Positions 15,080-19,112 are shown, counted from the stretch's first letter. The stretch: DNA of 64,000 nucleotides from Alphaproteobacteria bacterium (GCA_016124955.1 WGMR01000008.1:18004-82003); one strand, 5' to 3'. Notes: generated by a model not told the origin, from the letters alone. A program made the numbers and translations.

Positions 15080-15328
15080 TTTATTTTCACTATAAATCTG
15101 GTTAATAATGCTATTGTATATCATAGCAATATCAATATGTTATATTGCAATTAGGGTAAAGAAAAGCGGGCCAAAAAAAATCAAAACGAACGTTTTTATT
15201 TTCGCCTTATTTGGGCTAAACCCTAAGATTGCTTGAATATTTATATACATATTATTGGCAATAAATTACTATTTTGCGGAAAGCGAAATTGATGAGATTC
15301 CCGTTGCGCGTGCTGGGCTATAAGCGAC

Positions 15329-16423
15329 ATGGCTAGTAGTTCACCCAAGAACCTGTTTTCGGAAGACGAGAGCTATGAACTGGTCGCCATTGACCAGAAT
15401 AGCGATAAGGATTTTGTTGCCGAATTGGCGGGCGTGTACGCGGCCGGCTTCAACACGGTCAAAGAAGTCCAGCCGGAATGGGATCTGGAAGGGGCGCTCA
15501 AGCTTCTGAAGCAACGCTTGCAAAGACCTTCTGCAATCCTTGCGGTACGCGACAAAAAAACCGGCAAACTCTGCGCCGGGTTTTTTGCCGATATCATGCC
15601 CGGCAAAGACGGCATGCGCGTTTCTTCCTTCGATATCGTGGTGCTGCCCGAACATCGTAATAACCCGGAAGCAAGGTTGGGCACGAGGCTTCTGCACGAA
15701 GGCATGATCGCCGCCAATACGGCTAGCCGGCAGGAATTCGGGGAGGATTTGGCCGTCTGGGAAGGCCAGACATATAAAAAGCTTGCAGGGAAGCATCCAT
15801 ATGAATGGTGGATGGCCATGGATTACGAGCCGAAATCCCTGTTCCATATTGCCGCCGCAAGCATCACATGCCTGCCGAATTTGCCTGATGCAAATGTCGC
15901 TATCAAGCCATTGGATGTCTCAAATCACAGGGCTATGAAAAAAGTATCCGAGTTCATGGCAAGGAAATCCACCGGCCCGGACCAGGATGGACGAAACTGG
16001 TCGCCGGAACGCGCGAAAAAATATCTGGCCTATATGGCCAGATACAATCCATCGATCATCCGTGTTGCGTACGGAAAGCGCGGCGAAGTTATCGGCTGCT
16101 TTTTCGGTGACACGGTTTTGGGCCGTAGTGGTCCGCACATGACCGATACGCTGGTGTTCGCCGACAACGAAAAAATGTCGGAACAAAGCATAACCGCCTT
16201 GCTGGTCGAAGGGGTCAAGGCCGCCGATCATGCCGCGCAGGATCGTTATGGTAGCCAGCTCCGTGACGTTGAAATGCCCTACTGGTCAAGCAATCGGCAT
16301 ATATGGCCGATTCTGGAACGCGCCGGGCTGCAAGAAGACAAGGATTTCGTCCATGTCGTTGCCGATGCCGACAGGTTCAGGGATAAGATCAAGCTCAAGG
16401 CAAGCGCGCTTAATTTTGGCTAA
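15329..16423 (+). CDS. Hypothetical protein with two tandem degenerate GNAT-like (acyl-CoA N-acyltransferase fold) halves
   Basis: 364 aa. First half has a GNAT-like core (ILAVRDKKTGKLCAGFFADIM ... FDIVVLPEHRNNPEARLGTRLLHEGM). The second half has a weaker copy (GEVIGCFFGD ... TLVFADNEKMSEQSITALLVEGV). Lower GC than the host. No confident family assignment. Confidence 0.45.
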   Translation: MASSSPKNLFSEDESYELVAIDQNSDKDFVAELAGVYAAGFNTVKEVQPEWDLEGALKLLKQRLQRPSAILAVRDKKTGKLCAGFFADIMPGKDGMRVSSFDIVVLPEHRNNPEARLGTRLLHEGMIAANTASRQEFGEDLAVWEGQTYKKLAGKHPYEWWMAMDYEPKSLFHIAAASITCLPNLPDANVAIKPLDVSNHRAMKKVSEFMARKSTGPDQDGRNWSPERAKKYLAYMARYNPSIIRVAYGKRGEVIGCFFGDTVLGRSGPHMTDTLVFADNEKMSEQSITALLVEGVKAADHAAQDRYGSQLRDVEMPYWSSNRHIWPILERAGLQEDKDFVHVVADADRFRDKIKLKASALNFG

Positions 16424-16435
16424 TAAGGCCGGGCG

Positions 16436-17077
16436 CTATTTGGTCGGGACGACCGCTTCCTGCCAGAAAGCATCGAACTGTTGTATCAGCGATTTGATAA
16501 GCTGTTCCGAATATATCGAAACGATCATGACATCCTCGGCCGACGCTTTCATGTAGAAGATGACGTGATTGCCGAAAAGATAGTATGGCAGGGCGTGCGT
16601 GTGGTCTTTCCTTAGCCAGCGGTATTCACCGTATTTTGCGGCGAAGTTGGTGTCGCCATAAGGAATAAGGCACTTCGCATCGAGATTCTTGATGGTTCCC
16701 ATGCGATCAAGATGGGCTTTCGAATAGGCGGAAGTGAAGTTCTCCATCAGATTGTCGCTGAAGTTGAAGTGACGCGTAATCCCGCCTTCGGTCTTCATGG
16801 CGTCAAAGATGTCATCAAGGACTTGCTTGTACCCTTCGTGCCCGATGTAGGTTTTGACCAGCTCTTTGTGCTTTTGCACGCCTTCGTTTTCGGTAAACTC
16901 CACATCGCGTGCCCTGAAGGCCCGCACGATTGCTTCGGCGGTTGATTCCTGCGGGCGGAAGGTGCCGTGCTCAATATTCTTGATGGTTTCGGGGGATATG
17001 CTGGCGGCTTTGGCGAGATCGGCCCTCGTCCAGTCCAGCAGACCTCGTGCAGCGCGAAGTTGTGCGGGTGAGGGCAT
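16436..17077 (-). CDS. XRE-family HTH transcriptional regulator with uncharacterised ~140-aa C-terminal domain (paralog of 18291..19037)
   Basis: N-terminal LRAARGLLDWTRADLAKAASISPETIKNIEHG helix-turn-helix. The C-terminal domain carries a YGD...YGEYRW...YYLFG motif shared with the second regulator. Confidence 0.65.
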   Translation of the reverse strand: MPSPAQLRAARGLLDWTRADLAKAASISPETIKNIEHGTFRPQESTAEAIVRAFRARDVEFTENEGVQKHKELVKTYIGHEGYKQVLDDIFDAMKTEGGITRHFNFSDNLMENFTSAYSKAHLDRMGTIKNLDAKCLIPYGDTNFAAKYGEYRWLRKDHTHALPYYLFGNHVIFYMKASAEDVMIVSIYSEQLIKSLIQQFDAFWQEAVVPTK

Positions 17078-17258
17078 GGCGGTTTCTCTTGCTCTATTTG
17101 GCCTGTATCTGCTCGATTAACTACCATTTTAGGGTATTTGGCAAGTAAAGTAATAGTTTCGAGTTTTTTGCACTGCGTTAAATCATATTAACCTTAAAAA
17201 ATAATGCCTTAGATCATCTGTCTAACGCAGCATGAAACTATTTATGTTATTTAATTGA

Positions 17259-17268
17259 CCAATATTGG
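17259..17268. promoter_or_regulatory. 10-bp perfect palindrome CCAATATTGG in the divergent promoter between regulator 1 and the 120-aa gene
   Basis: Seen at 17259-17268 inside the AT-rich 268-bp gap 17078-17345. An inverted repeat CTGCGTTAAA/TCTAACGCAG also lies at 17174-17183 and 17222-17231. Confidence 0.3.
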
Positions 17269-17345
17269 CATGTATAAAGGCCATCATAGTTGGCGAATCG
17301 TTATCTATAAAAAACAGCTTGCACTTACTCAGCTATGGTTAAGAA

Positions 17346-17708
17346 ATGAATGTTAGAAGCAAAAAGATCATGAACGACAACAGCCGCAAACCAAAAACGG
17401 ATATGGACAGCGCACGCGATGCGCTGGCGCGCGACCTTGCTGATCTGAAGCAGATGAGCGATGCCGTCATGGCCGGTGAATGGGAAGGGCATAAACCGCG
17501 CGGCCTTTCAGAGTCGGAGATTATTTCCATCACCGCGCTTGTCAGCTATGTGGCGCATACACGCGGCAAGAAGGAAGACGATGTCCGCAATGGCCTGTTC
17601 GAACGTTTCGGCGTAGGCGAAATCGAAAGCCTTGCGCCTGCCGCTTATGACGATGCGGTGCGCTTCCTGGTCGATCAGGTGCCGGAAGACGCGACAGGCT
17701 CCGGCTAG
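17346..17708 (+). CDS. Hypothetical protein (120 aa)
   Basis: ORF in the islet, divergent from regulator 1. Its stop overlaps the end of small protein B by 4 nt (convergent). No recognisable domain. Confidence 0.35.
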   Translation: MNVRSKKIMNDNSRKPKTDMDSARDALARDLADLKQMSDAVMAGEWEGHKPRGLSESEIISITALVSYVAHTRGKKEDDVRNGLFERFGVGEIESLAPAAYDDAVRFLVDQVPEDATGSG

Positions 17709-17893
17709 GCTCCTTGTTGGGGGCCGGTAGCGGGCCCTGTTTCTCCTATTCTTGCAAAAGCCGTTTGCAACCGTTCTTCCTCGGTCATATGAACGGCGGC
17801 GGTATTTCCTGTGCGCGCCAGCTTCTCGATGATGACAAGCATATCGAAGGCGCCATCGGCGCCGTAACGCGCGATCATATCCGCATAACGCAT
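17705..17893 (-). CDS. Small hypothetical protein B (~63 aa), paralog of the adjacent upstream gene
   Basis: The likely start is MRYADMIARYGADGAFDMLVIIEKLARTGNTAAVHMTEEERLQTAFARIGE... It shares the EEERLQTA motif and overall pattern with protein A. It sits 7 nt downstream of A's stop. Confidence 0.4.
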   Translation of the reverse strand: MRYADMIARYGADGAFDMLVIIEKLARTGNTAAVHMTEEERLQTAFARIGETGPATGPQQGA

Positions 17894-17900
17894 GGGCTGG

Positions 17901-18104
17901 TTACCCCGCTGCATGCTTGATCGTTTCTGCCTCGTCGATCGGGCACACATCGTCAAGCCGGATCAGTGCGGTTTGCAGCCGTTCTTCTTCCCGCATTGCT
18001 AGCCGTGCGGCATCGGTCTGTATTTGCGCCATTTTCTCAAGCGACATGAGGATATCCATCGCCATGACCTTGCCGAATTTTTTACACATCTGTCCGTACG
18101 TCAT
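17901..18104 (-). CDS. Small hypothetical protein A (~67 aa), first of two tandem paralogs
   Basis: A GGAGGG Shine-Dalgarno lies 5 nt upstream of the ATG at 18104. Translation is MTYGQMCKKFGKVMAMDILMSLEKMAQIQTDAARLAMREEERLQTALIRLDD..., predicted helical. Confidence 0.45.
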   Translation of the reverse strand: MTYGQMCKKFGKVMAMDILMSLEKMAQIQTDAARLAMREEERLQTALIRLDDVCPIDEAETIKHAAG

Positions 18105-18231
18105 ATGTCCCTCCATTTTTCTATGAAGATTCAATCGCTTTAGCCTGCGTGCCACCTCTTGTCCTGTTGCCTGCGGTAACTGAAAACCGGTATTAAGATA
18201 ACATTTTGTTATTTTTATCGCTTGTTAATTC

Positions 18232-18245
18232 ACATTACGTAATGT
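18232..18245. promoter_or_regulatory. Perfect 14-bp palindrome ACATTACGTAATGT; candidate operator in the divergent promoter between small protein A and regulator 2
   Basis: Seen at 18232-18245 in the AT-rich 186-bp gap 18105-18290, about 46 nt upstream of the regulator-2 start codon. Confidence 0.4.
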
Positions 18246-18290
18246 AATAATACATGAAACGGAATTTTTGTCATCAGGAGAATTAATTTT

Positions 18291-19037
18291 ATGGAAAAAA
18301 TCGAAGGGCGGCAAATACGGGGCGCACGCGGACTGTTGGGTTGGAGCGCTGAGCATCTTGCCGAGCGAACCGGTCTGACGCGTCAGGCGATCAAACGCAT
18401 CGAGGATGGCGCGGTGCGCCCGCGCGAAGGAACACTGGCCGACATTATGCGCGTGCTTGACGAGCAGGGCATAGAGTTCAGCGGCAATTCGGGTGTGCGT
18501 TTCAAGCCGCAGGGCGTGGAAGTGCTGACAGGCGACGAAGGCCTGCGCCGGCATTTCGACAATGTCTATGAATATATGTCCAAGCACGGGGGGCTGGTTC
18601 AGCATGTCGGTATGAACGAAATGCAGTTATATAACCACATTAGGTACGAGTTCTCGAGAGTGCATGTTGGCCGTATGATGGATATTGCGGCCGAACGTGA
18701 TGATGTGAATGTACGCGCCATTCTTTGTGAGGGAGATGCATTTTTCGGCAGCGATTATACGGAGTACCGTTGGCAGGCCAGAGGCAGCTATGACGATGTC
18801 GCCTATTATCTCTATGGCGACCGGCTGGCAATCATGTCGTTCGTGGGCGAACCGTCGCCGATTGTCGTGACGCATAAAATTCCGTCCATCGCACAATCTT
18901 ATCGCAGGCAGTTTGAAGCGTTGTGGAAGGACGCCGTTGTCCCGCCCGGCTACAAATTCCGTCGCCCCCGGCCGGGGGACGAAAACAAGGGTGCCGCGCC
19001 AGTCTGGCAGACTGCGGGGGACAAAAGGAAGAGGTAA
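18291..19037 (+). CDS. XRE-family HTH transcriptional regulator with uncharacterised C-terminal domain (paralog of 16436..17077)
   Basis: N-terminal IRGARGLLGWSAEHLAERTGLTRQAIKRIEDG HTH. The C-terminal domain has FFGSDYTEYRW...AYYLYGDRLAIM, aligning with regulator 1, plus a basic C-terminal tail. It ends 1 nt before the tRNA-Gly. Confidence 0.65.
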   Translation: MEKIEGRQIRGARGLLGWSAEHLAERTGLTRQAIKRIEDGAVRPREGTLADIMRVLDEQGIEFSGNSGVRFKPQGVEVLTGDEGLRRHFDNVYEYMSKHGGLVQHVGMNEMQLYNHIRYEFSRVHVGRMMDIAAERDDVNVRAILCEGDAFFGSDYTEYRWQARGSYDDVAYYLYGDRLAIMSFVGEPSPIVVTHKIPSIAQSYRRQFEALWKDAVVPPGYKFRRPRPGDENKGAAPVWQTAGDKRKR

Positions 19038-19038
19038 T

Positions 19039-19112
19039 TGGAGCGGGTGACGGGAATCGAACCCGCGTAGCCAGCTTGGGAAGCTGGAGCTCTACCATTG
19101 AGCTACACCCGC
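19039..19112 (-). tRNA. tRNA-Gly (anticodon CCC)
   Basis: Reverse complement reads GCGGGTGTAGCTCAATGGTAGAGCTCCAGCTTCCCAAGCTGGCTACGCGGGTTCGATTCCCGTCACCCGCTCCA. Cloverleaf folds by eye: 7-bp acceptor, anticodon loop TTCCCAA, T-loop TTCGATT, encoded CCA. Confidence 0.85.

What the first reader, a model, noticed from the sequence alone, without database searches (positions are those of the whole stretch)
16436..19037. Two paralogous XRE-HTH regulators sharing an unrecognised ~140-aa C-terminal domain, arranged divergently around the small-gene cassette
The 213-aa (16436..17077, minus) and 248-aa (18291..19037, plus) proteins align over both domains. The HTH regions are LRAARGLLDWTRADLAKAASISPETIKNIEHG versus IRGARGLLGWSAEHLAERTGLTRQAIKRIEDG. 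The C-terminal region is CLIPYGDTNFAAKYGEYRWLRKDHTHALPYYLFGNHVIFYMKASAED versus ILCEGDAFFGSDYTEYRWQARGSYDDVAYYLYGDRLAIMSFVGEPS. The C-terminal domain has no HExxH (ImmA/IrrE), no Ser-Lys S24 signature and no cupin G-x5-HxH that I can see. It may be a novel sensor or oligomerisation domain. Regulator 2 has an extra basic tail (KFRRPRPGDENKG...KRKR).
Basis: seen in the sequence. Interest (0 to 1): 0.6.

Follow-up and report, generated by a model that had tools for sequence, protein, structure and literature searches.

The report
XRE regulators with TrmB-like PLD-fold domain
The two neighbouring genes are real paralogous DNA-binding regulators. Their "unknown" C-terminal half is a catalytically dead phospholipase-D-fold domain of the kind found in archaeal TrmB regulators, so this is an uncurated variant of a known regulator design, not a new kind of protein.

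Summary
Reg1 (16436-17077, minus, 213 aa) and Reg2 (18291-19037, plus, 248 aa) align over both domains (30% identity, E=3e-39). Pfam, NCBIfam, PADLOC, PHROGs and PDB sequence searches recognise only the N-terminal XRE helix-turn-helix.

The C-terminal domain is not an orphan. An exhaustive profile search finds 743 clusters, nearly all ~205-245 aa with the same two-domain layout. A confident AlphaFold model (pLDDT 92) puts it in the phospholipase-D fold, closest to TrmBL2, Nuc/NucT, Zucchini and TrmB. No HKD catalytic motif is conserved. One 926-aa relative joins a true TrmB winged helix to six copies of this domain, a sequence-level link to TrmB-family regulators.

In 38 of 44 related loci a homologue of the window's 120-aa protein sits divergently upstream of the regulator, not the small proteins A/B. 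An unrelated, variable enzyme gene usually follows. The shared intergenic DNA carries conserved tandem TACC-N7-GGTA inverted repeats, often 21 bp apart (41 sites against 4.1 expected). The window's only perfect copy lies in Reg1's promoter.

Most likely these are oligomeric, autoregulating transcription factors. Ligand, partner contacts and the A/B function remain unknown. It is a new variant of a known kind, of moderate interest.

The parts
16436..17077 (-). Reg1, 213 aa: XRE-HTH plus a TrmB-like, HKD-less PLD-fold domain.
   Evidence: ORF. HTH_3 35.5 bits. AF2 model with pLDDT 92. Foldseek matches to TrmBL2 and PLD-family proteins. Annotated only as 'helix-turn-helix domain-containing protein'.
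16913..17068 (-). Reg1 HTH domain, aa 4-55. The recognition helix is ...SPETIKNIE...
   Evidence: Pfam HTH_3/HTH_31 at aa 5-60. Helices 4-14, 18-25, 29-37 and 44-55 in the model. Best PDB sequence match is the C.Kpn2I controller 4yba, E=2.7e-13.
16454..16864 (-). Reg1 C-terminal PLD-fold domain, aa ~72-208.
   Evidence: Beta-alpha-beta... topology in the model. Foldseek: TrmBL2, NucT, Nuc, Zucchini, PLD3, TrmB and poxvirus F13-like PLD proteins. Family near-invariant residues are H122, R125, M126, Y149, Y152, P164, F165, Y166, Y168, Q200, F201 and W205; there is no HxK...D.
18291..19037 (+). Reg2, 248 aa: a paralogue of Reg1 with the same two domains plus a basic tail (aa ~219-248, 18945-19034).
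   Evidence: ORF. 30% identity to Reg1, E=3e-39. HTH_31 37.7 bits. Carries Ala where the family has a near-invariant Thr in the recognition helix. Closest relatives are 42-44% identical.
17346..17708 (+). p120: small protein transcribed divergently from Reg1 (annotated as 112 aa from 17370). It is the conserved partner of the regulator family.
   Evidence: A homologue lies divergently and immediately upstream of the regulator in 38 of 44 related loci. The conserved part is the C-terminal ~60 aa. It has no Pfam family; 12 of 34 members give a weak ORF6C hit. All 60 homologues are named 'hypothetical'. Pairwise identities correlate with those of Reg, r=0.51 against a permutation maximum of 0.43.
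17122..17136 (.). Perfect inverted repeat TACCATTTTAGGGTA (TACC-N7-GGTA), a candidate Reg1 operator. It lies between a -35-like TTGCCA (17144-17139) and a -10-like GTTAAT (17121-17116) on the Reg1 strand.
   Evidence: It is the only perfect match in the 64-kb window. The same repeat is about 10-fold enriched in homologous intergenic regions: 41 hits against 4.1 +/- 2.1. The promoter hexamers were read by eye and were not reported by the scan.
17231..17275 (-). Conserved non-coding 'block A' next to the p120 start. It holds two more degenerate operator-like repeats (TGCCAATATTGGTCA and TAACATAAATAGTTT).
   Evidence: An nhmmer model built from 31 homologous intergenic regions hits here with E=4e-8.
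17901..18104 (-). Small gene B (67 aa from the internal ATG, with a GGAGGG ribosome-binding site), divergent from Reg2.
   Evidence: ORF and sequence. Annotated as hypothetical GC131_07835. Paralogue of A at 39% identity, E=5e-13. No relatives in related loci or in the metagenome scan.
17705..17893 (-). Small gene A (62 aa from the internal ATG), 7 nt downstream of B. It is not annotated in the source record.
18222..18251 (+). Promoter-like site for Reg2 (TTGTTA-18-AATAAT). The 14-bp palindrome ACATTACGTAATGT (18232-18245) lies in its spacer. A minus-strand promoter-like site for B/A (18274-18247) overlaps it.
   Evidence: Promoter scan. The palindrome was counted, but 16 perfect 14-bp palindromes occur in the window, so it is weak evidence alone.
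18198..18212 (.). Inverted repeat ATAACATTTTGTTAT upstream of Reg2, an alternative candidate Reg2 operator.
   Evidence: Read from the sequence. The same core, CATAACATTTTGTTATG, occurs in the intergenic region of L051, which encodes Reg2's closest genome-collection relative at 38% identity.
15329..16423 (+). p364: probable double GNAT-like acetyltransferase. It is the 'cargo' gene of this locus and here lies convergent with Reg1.
   Evidence: Homologues in L008, L010 and L012 lie directly downstream of the regulator and co-directional with it. Those homologues hit Acetyltransf_1. p364 itself has only a weak PHROG acetyltransferase hit.

Best explanation
Reg1 and Reg2 belong to a large, uncurated family of two-domain bacterial transcription factors.

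**Domains.** The N-terminal XRE/Cro-type helix-turn-helix reads DNA. The C-terminal domain has the phospholipase-D fold, has lost the catalytic HKD motif, and is homologous to the domain that follows the DNA-binding domain in TrmB-family regulators.

**Proposed role of the C-domain (inferred).** It holds the protein together as a dimer or a dimer of dimers. It probably also receives the input signal, either a small ligand or a protein partner.

**Proposed action of Reg1 (inferred).** Reg1-type proteins bind 15-bp inverted repeats, TACC-N7-GGTA. These occur as tandem pairs two helical turns apart in the AT-rich region shared with the divergently transcribed p120 gene. Reg1 would thereby control its own promoter and that of p120. 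In most relatives it would also control the enzyme gene co-transcribed downstream of the regulator.

**Reg2 (inferred).** It is a diverged paralogue with a changed recognition helix. It probably uses a different operator to control itself and the divergent B-A small-gene pair.

**Shown here:** paralogy, family size, domain layout, fold, absence of HKD, conserved gene neighbourhood, and conserved, enriched inverted repeats.

**Not shown:** who binds the repeats, the oligomeric state, repression versus activation, and the input signal.
For: - **Paralogy:**
- **Family size and layout:** 743 clusters at E<=1e-3 and 310 at E<=1e-10. Almost all are 205-245 aa with the domain at ~62-215. Only HTH Pfam domains are seen in 100 members.
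- **Fold:** AF2 pLDDT 92, pTM 0.69. Foldseek against PDB gives TrmBL2 at 2e-6, NucT, Nuc, Zucchini, PLD3, and the TrmB sugar-binding domain at 6.6e-3. BFVD gives poxvirus PLD-like envelope proteins.
- **Sequence link to TrmB:** P0120 has the TrmB wHTH PF01978 (E=4.8e-14). It also has six copies of the domain, whole-protein E=1.6e-35 at library size (first seen).
- **TrmB family layout:** HTH, dimerisation helix, then C-terminal domain, with TrmBL2 tetrameric (PMC4877046, PMC4158304).
- **No conserved His-x-Lys...Asp in the alignments:**
- **Conserved neighbourhood:** p120 divergent, regulator, variable cargo. The four cargo families are mutually unrelated.
- **Non-coding conservation:** blocks are conserved between loci whose proteins are only ~40-57% identical.
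- **Repeat enrichment:** TACC-N7-GGTA gives 41 hits in 34 regions against 4.1 +/- 2.1 shuffled, maximum 11. Tandem copies are exactly 21 bp apart in at least six loci and in L092. The only perfect copy in the window sits ~45-59 nt upstream of the Reg1 start.
- **The repeat follows the regulator:** it persists upstream of Reg1-type genes that lack a p120 neighbour (L005, L015, L020, L024).
- **HTH similarity:** the HTH is most like the autoregulatory R-M controller protein C.Kpn2I.
Against: - No binding, oligomerisation or expression data exist. All hosts are uncultured MAGs.
- Pfam's TrmB C-terminal model PF11495 does not hit at E<=1.
- The model shows no long dimerisation helix like that of TrmB.
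- The promoter hexamers around the Reg1 operator do not pass the scan's rule.
- p120, rather than Reg, could be the protein that reads the repeats.
- The candidate Reg2 operators are not statistically distinctive, and the window's Reg2 upstream region lacks a good TACC-N7-GGTA.
- In the window the cargo gene p364 is convergent with Reg1, so it cannot be co-transcribed with it.
Confidence: 0.55

Rival explanations
1. Repressor/counter-regulator switch. Reg and p120 form a CI/Cro-like or repressor/antirepressor pair. p120 either binds the PLD-fold domain of Reg to release it from DNA, or competes at the shared operators. The locus would then flip between two states, with the enzyme gene expressed in one of them.
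For: - A divergent Reg/p120 pair is conserved in 38 of 44 loci, and the pairwise identities correlate.
- Two pairs of operator-like repeats lie in one shared control region.
- p120 gives weak ORF6C-like hits, a domain of phage regulatory proteins.
- In L051 and L092 the p120 operon also encodes a second regulator paralogue facing the first. This echoes Reg1/p120/Reg2 in the window.
- In L006, L017, L042 and L047, p120 heads the strand that leads into DUF6456 and gene-transfer-agent-like head genes.
Against: - The ORF6C hits are below any threshold (best E 0.034).
- There is no evidence of a physical contact; no multimer prediction was possible.
- Six of 44 loci lack p120, yet some keep the operator.
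- The correlation of identities is also expected from simple co-inheritance.
- The position next to GTA-like genes is shared synteny in one sub-lineage and is absent from the window.
Confidence: 0.2
2. Toxin-antitoxin or defence cassette. Reg is an Xre-type antitoxin or controller, and the variable downstream enzyme (GNAT, methyltransferase or others) is a toxin or effector.
For: - Four unrelated enzyme families sit directly after a conserved regulator, with gaps of 0-25 nt.
- GNAT toxins with HTH antitoxins are a known type (my own knowledge).
- The HTH resembles HipB, MqsA and controller proteins.
Against: - PADLOC and NCBIfam hits cover only the HTH.
- The cargo proteins are 300-430 aa and resemble metabolic enzymes (EgtD-like Methyltransf_33, double GNAT) rather than known toxins.
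- The loci are syntenic chromosomal positions, not defence islands.
- The family is essentially absent from plasmids and nearly absent from viral contigs.
- In the window the cargo gene is convergent and has its own upstream region.
Confidence: 0.07
3. Architectural, nucleoid-associated protein. Like TrmBL2, its closest structural match, the protein would coat DNA with little sequence specificity rather than act at specific operators.
For: - TrmBL2 is the top structural hit.
- Many family members have basic C-terminal tails.
- Several paralogues occur per genome.
Against: - A specific inverted repeat is strongly conserved and enriched next to the genes.
- The XRE-type recognition helix is nearly invariant within the Reg1 subgroup.
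- The gene-neighbour pattern is that of local regulators.
Confidence: 0.05

Closest known systems
TrmB family regulators (TrmB, TrmBL1, TrmBL2; Pfam PF01978 DNA-binding domain plus PF11495 C-terminal domain)
   Same: - Two-part design: an N-terminal DNA-binding HTH followed by a non-catalytic PLD-fold domain.
- Best structural matches are TrmBL2 and TrmB.
- One relative, P0120, carries a true TrmB wHTH followed by this domain.
- TrmB proteins bind palindromes, often autoregulate, and act as dimers or tetramers (PMC4158304, PMC4877046).
   Different: - The DNA-binding domain is XRE/Cro-type, not the TrmB winged helix.
- PF11495 does not hit by sequence.
- There is no long dimerisation helix between the domains in the model.
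- There is no extra sugar-binding subdomain.
- The hosts are bacterial (uncultured Alphaproteobacteria), not archaeal sugar regulons.
PLD-superfamily nucleases and phosphodiesterases (Nuc, NucT, Zucchini/PLD6, PLD3)
   Same: Single-domain PLD fold of ~150 aa. Enzymes of this class work as dimers of two such domains (my own knowledge).
   Different: No HxK(x)4D motif is conserved anywhere in the family alignment. The domain is fused to an HTH, so it is presumably not an enzyme.
Restriction-modification controller (C) proteins, e.g. C.Kpn2I (PDB 4yba)
   Same: - Closest solved sequence relative of the HTH plus the following hairpin: E=2.7e-13, Foldseek TM 0.75-0.78 on the target.
- C proteins autoregulate through tandem palindromic operators upstream of their own gene (my own knowledge). 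This parallels the tandem TACC-N7-GGTA sites.
   Different: - C proteins are ~80-100 aa with a single domain and dimerise through the HTH domain itself.
- They sit in restriction-modification operons.
- Here there is an extra 150-aa domain and no restriction enzyme or DNA methyltransferase.
Lambda CI / LexA-type and ImmR/ImmA-type two-part repressors
   Same: An XRE HTH plus a C-terminal oligomerisation or signal domain. Gene transcribed divergently from a small regulator gene, with multiple operators in a shared control region.
   Different: No S24 peptidase, and no M78 HExxH partner or domain. Not in prophages: only 2 of 2.9 million viral contigs hold a full-length relative.

Membership tests
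XRE / Cro-C1 HTH regulators (Pfam HTH_3, PF01381) | N-terminal domain scores above the curated Pfam threshold. | tested here: met
   Reg1 scores 35.5 bits and Reg2 30.9 bits against a cut-off of 23. HTH_31 also passes. 92 of 100 family members match HTH_3.
TrmB family | TrmB-type winged-helix DNA-binding domain (PF01978). | tested here: not met
   No PF01978 hit in Reg1, Reg2 or 100 relatives. Only the atypical 926-aa relative P0120 has it.
TrmB family | C-terminal domain recognised by PF11495 (Regulator_TrmB). | tested here: not met
   No hit at E<=1 for the window proteins or at E<=0.1 for 100 relatives. A profile-profile test against PF11495 could not be run.
TrmB family | C-terminal domain has the TrmB/TrmBL2 (PLD-like) fold. 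| tested here: met
   Foldseek on the pLDDT-92 model gives TrmBL2 5bpd/5bpi at E=2.3e-6 to 5.8e-6 and TrmB 2f5t at E=6.6e-3. This is a predicted model only.
TrmB family | Amphipathic dimerisation helix between the DNA-binding and C-terminal domains. | tested here: not met
   In the model, a short beta-hairpin (59-61, 67-69) and strand 74-78 link the HTH to the C-domain. There is no long helix. The TrmB layout is taken from PMC4877046.
PLD superfamily enzymes (HKD phosphodiesterases) | Catalytic HxK(x)4D motif. | tested here: not met
   The invariant and near-invariant columns of the 100- and 113-sequence alignments contain no Lys and no His in the C-terminal strands. The only conserved His (H122) lies in a helix, in the motif HxxRM.
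LexA/CI S24 peptidase, ImmA/IrrE M78, cupin-type sensor domains | Sequence match to the family, or its signature (Ser-Lys dyad, HExxH, G-x5-HxH). | tested here: not met
   No such Pfam or NCBIfam hits. The fold is PLD-like.
R-M controller (C) proteins | Small single-domain HTH protein encoded within a restriction-modification operon. | tested here: not met
   The HTH is similar. However, the proteins are 213-248 aa with a second domain, and the neighbours are not R-M genes.
Type II toxin-antitoxin (Xre-type antitoxin) | Adjacent recognisable toxin gene that forms an operon with the antitoxin. | tested here: inconclusive
   The downstream genes are variable enzymes with no toxin-family hit. Toxicity was not testable.

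The most novel reading that the evidence does not exclude
The regulator, its lineage-specific partner p120 and, in some genomes, a second facing paralogue could form a self-contained genetic switch. In it, the dead PLD-fold domain would be the docking site for p120 or for a metabolite made or consumed by the variable enzyme next door. This switch would have been reused across uncultured Micavibrio-like Alphaproteobacteria to gate different enzymes and, in some genomes, the gene-transfer-agent cluster.
Probability: 0.12. Interest if true: 0.6.

Novelty: new variant of a known kind. Interest (0 to 1): 0.35.

Why it matters
- It gives a name and a fold to a family of several hundred sequence clusters that public annotation labels only "helix-turn-helix protein".
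- It shows that the TrmB-type PLD-fold regulatory domain, mostly studied in Archaea, has been recombined with an XRE-type DNA-binding head in bacteria.
- It provides a concrete, testable operator (TACC-N7-GGTA, in tandem copies 21 bp apart) and a conserved partner protein.
- This is useful for annotation and for studying regulation in uncultured, possibly predatory Alphaproteobacteria. It does not overturn any current view.

Tried and rejected
**Alternative identities for the C-domain**
- S24, M78 and cupin: no hits.
- Defence-system component: PADLOC hits (RmrA, control protein, CapH) cover only aa ~3-70, the HTH.
- Phage repressor family: PHROG hits are HTH only. Only L092/L093 among viral contigs are full length.
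- Plasmid-borne family: tblastn against PLSDB finds HTH-only matches.

**Searches that gave little**
- The word-indexed search with the C-domain alone found only the protein itself. The exhaustive profile search was needed.
- Single-sequence AF2 gave pLDDT 41 and was useless.

**The small genes A and B**
- A/B as truncated p120-like proteins: an hmmsearch with the p120 profile gives no signal.
- A/B relatives elsewhere: none in 45 loci or in the metagenome pattern scan.

**Other readings of the locus**
- Genomic island at tRNA-Gly: no integrase and no convincing direct repeat of the tRNA 3' end; the best is 14 of 17 inside ugd. The lower G+C is largely due to three AT-rich intergenic regions.
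- Structured RNA in the intergenic regions: no Rfam hit.
- Cargo families as one divergent family: hhalign probabilities are all below 1%. PDB profile searches for c18, c44 and c78 found nothing.

**Weak or unavailable evidence**
- The 14-bp palindrome upstream of Reg2 is weak evidence, because 16 such palindromes occur in the window.
Full report
**1. The observation**

The window holds a 213-aa ORF on the minus strand (16436-17077, Reg1) and a 248-aa ORF on the plus strand (18291-19037, Reg2). BLASTP aligns them over 211 residues at 30% identity, E=3e-39, covering both the N-terminal and the C-terminal parts.

Pfam places an XRE/Cro-type helix-turn-helix at residues ~5-60 of each, above the curated thresholds. 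Nothing in Pfam, NCBIfam, PADLOC or PHROGs matches the remaining ~150 residues.

**2. The C-terminal domain belongs to a large family**

- A word-indexed search with the domain alone found only the protein itself.
- An exhaustive HMMER search of 1.84 billion cluster representatives, using a profile of just the two window domains, found 743 clusters at E<=1e-3 and 310 at E<=1e-10.
- Almost all hits are 205-245 aa with the domain at ~62-215, so they share the architecture of Reg1 and Reg2.
- One hundred members scanned individually show only HTH Pfam families.
- A 100-sequence profile finds only HTH proteins in the PDB. The best is the R-M controller C.Kpn2I at E=2.7e-13.
- Where sources give a name, it is only "helix-turn-helix transcriptional regulator", from uncultured Alphaproteobacteria and "Bdellovibrionales" MAGs.

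**3. Fold of the domain**

With a 113-sequence alignment, AlphaFold2 gives a confident model of Reg1 (mean pLDDT 92, pTM 0.69). The single-sequence run had failed.

Foldseek against the PDB returns these matches:

| Match | E-value |
|---|---|
| TrmBL2 (5bpd/5bpi) | 2e-6 to 6e-6 |
| NucT, Nuc, Zucchini/PLD6, PLD3 (PLD nucleases) | 2.4e-5 to 4e-4 |
| Sugar-binding domain of TrmB (2f5t) | 6.6e-3 |

The remaining hits match only the HTH. Against predicted viral structures, the only non-HTH hits are poxvirus PLD-like envelope proteins.

The family alignments have no conserved His-x-Lys...Asp. The near-invariant residues of the domain are H122, R125, M126, Y149, Y152, P164, F165, Y166, Y168, Q200, F201 and W205. 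H122 lies in a helix of the model, not in the strand that carries the HKD histidine. The domain is therefore a non-catalytic PLD-fold domain.

**4. A sequence-level bridge to TrmB**

One hit of the exhaustive search, P0120 (926 aa), matched in six stretches.

- Its first 73 residues are a TrmB winged helix (PF01978, E=4.8e-14).
- The rest is six tandem copies of the Reg C-domain. The first copy sits exactly where TrmB proteins carry their C-terminal domain. The whole-protein E-value is 1.6e-35 at library size.
[quoted passage not shown] The Reg family is thus a domain-swapped relative: an XRE head in place of the TrmB winged helix. It has no long dimerisation helix in the model and no sugar-binding subdomain. 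Pfam's PF11495 does not detect it, so I do not file it as a TrmB-family member.

**5. Genomic context**

I collected 45 full-length loci from a species-level genome collection, plus contigs of individual homologues. I clustered all ORFs in them.

- The one gene family that travels with the regulator is that of the window's 120-aa protein (17346-17708). It lies divergently and immediately upstream in 38 of 44 loci.
- It is a ~100-130-aa protein with a conserved C-terminal ~60 residues. It has no Pfam family and gives only sub-threshold ORF6C-like hits in 12 of 34 members. All 60 homologues found are named "hypothetical".
- Pairwise identities of regulators and their p120 partners correlate: r=0.51, against a maximum of 0.43 in 1000 permutations.
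- Directly downstream of the regulator, 0-25 nt away and co-directional, most loci carry one of four enzyme-like families. These are a double GNAT (the family of the window's p364), an EgtD-like Methyltransf_33 methyltransferase, and two unknowns.
- The four cargo families are mutually unrelated by profile-profile comparison.
- In the window, p364 is present but convergent with Reg1.
- The small proteins A and B are paralogues of each other (39% identity, E=5e-13). They are unrelated to p120 and have no relatives in the loci or in a metagenome scan. B is annotated in the source record; A is not.

**6. Conserved control DNA**

The Reg/p120 intergenic regions share two strongly conserved blocks, although the proteins are only ~40-57% identical. 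Both blocks contain the inverted repeat TACC-N7-GGTA.

- Allowing one mismatch, it occurs 41 times in 34 regions, against 4.1 +/- 2.1 (maximum 11) in shuffled sequence. It is present in 25 of 34 loci.
- In at least six loci two copies lie exactly 21 bp apart. The same is seen in viral-collection contig L092.
- In the window the only perfect copy in 64 kb is at 17122-17136, 45-59 nt upstream of the Reg1 start. It lies between a -35-like TTGCCA and a -10-like GTTAAT. These hexamers were read by eye and are not reported by the scan.
- Block A maps to 17231-17275, next to p120.
- The repeat is still found upstream of four Reg1-type genes that have no p120 neighbour. This favours the regulator as its reader.
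- More distant, Reg2-like relatives lack the repeat.
- Reg2 carries Ala at a recognition-helix position that is Thr in nearly all relatives.
- Upstream of Reg2 there are overlapping divergent promoter-like sites, a 14-bp palindrome (18232-18245) and the repeat ATAACATTTTGTTAT (18198-18212). A near-identical core occurs in L051. Perfect 14-bp palindromes occur 16 times in the window, so these remain candidates only.
- No Rfam family matches any intergenic region.

**7. Recurrence of paralogue pairs**

Two family members lie within ~2.5 kb of each other in L036, L047, L051 and L092/L093 as well.

In L051 and L092 the layout is [second regulator <- p120 <-] | [-> regulator -> methyltransferase]. 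That is the window's Reg1 | p120 ... Reg2 order without the A/B insertion. Single genomes carry up to four paralogues.

**8. Mechanism**

*Shown:*
- an XRE HTH fused to an HKD-less PLD-fold domain homologous to the TrmB-type C-terminal domain
- a conserved divergent partner gene
- variable downstream enzyme genes
- conserved, enriched, phased inverted repeats in the shared control region

*Inferred:*
- The C-domain makes the protein a dimer or tetramer, as PLD-fold proteins and TrmBL2 do.
- The HTH pairs read the two half-sites of TACC-N7-GGTA.
- Tandem sites two helical turns apart are bound cooperatively.
- Binding over its own promoter makes Reg1 autoregulatory and couples it to p120.
- The cluster of conserved His, Arg, Tyr and Trp residues forms a pocket or interface that takes the input signal.

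I cannot tell whether that input is a metabolite linked to the neighbouring enzyme or the p120 protein. The switch, toxin-antitoxin and nucleoid-protein readings are listed as rivals.

**9. Comparison and verdict**

The proteins work like TrmB-type or CI-type two-part regulators and like autoregulatory C proteins. They fail membership tests for each:
- no TrmB wHTH, no PF11495 hit and no dimerisation helix
- no HKD motif
- no S24 or M78 domain
- not in R-M operons

The family is absent from PLSDB plasmids as a two-domain protein and nearly absent from viral contigs.

The "unrecognised domain" is unrecognised only at the level of curated sequence models, and the emphasis on the A/B cassette was misplaced. 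This is a new variant of a known kind, of moderate interest.

Noticed in passing
P0120 (926-aa protein from the representative library; not in the window): A TrmB winged-helix N-terminus followed by six tandem copies of the Reg-type PLD-fold domain. This is an unusual repeat architecture for a transcription-factor family.
   Followed up: partly
window 17705-17893 (-): Small ORF A (62 aa from the internal ATG) is a clear paralogue of the annotated 67-aa gene B and starts 7 nt after B's stop. It is not called as a gene in the source record, so it is a probable missed small gene.
   Followed up: partly
window 15329-16423 (+) against L008, L010 and L012: The double-GNAT-like gene p364 is convergent with Reg1 in the window. 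Its homologues elsewhere lie directly downstream of the regulator and co-directional with it. This suggests a local inversion that gave p364 its own 249-bp AT-rich (32% G+C) upstream region at 15080-15328.
   Followed up: partly
window 19039-19112 (-): tRNA-Gly(CCC) begins one base after the Reg2 stop codon, and the block 15080-19038 has lower G+C than its flanks. I found no integrase and no convincing repeat of the tRNA end, so an old integration event is neither shown nor excluded.
   Followed up: partly
L006, L017, L042, L047 (about 0-6000 in each locus): In these genomes the p120/regulator module lies next to a DUF6456 gene and gene-transfer-agent-like terminase, portal, protease and capsid genes. 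p120 is on the same strand as that cluster.
   Followed up: no
L088 4696-6703: A Reg2-like regulator is followed by a 304-aa protein with an NPPF methyltransferase motif and then an EgtD-like Methyltransf_33 protein, i.e. two methyltransferase-like genes in a row.
   Followed up: no
L092 3220-6596 (IMG/VR contig): A compact cluster with two family regulators, two tandem p120-like genes and a 311-aa downstream protein (not scanned against Pfam), with two TACC-N7-GGTA-type sites 21 bp apart. The contig is classed as viral, but the neighbouring genes were not examined.
   Followed up: partly
L001 4021-5244: A serpin-family gene sits next to the p120 gene in an alphaproteobacterial contig. Serpins are uncommon in bacteria.
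   Followed up: no
window 16021-16045: A 10-bp-stem hairpin (GTATCTGGCC...GGCCAGATAT) followed by a T-run lies on the minus strand inside the p364 coding region. It was flagged as terminator-like; its meaning is unknown.
   Followed up: no
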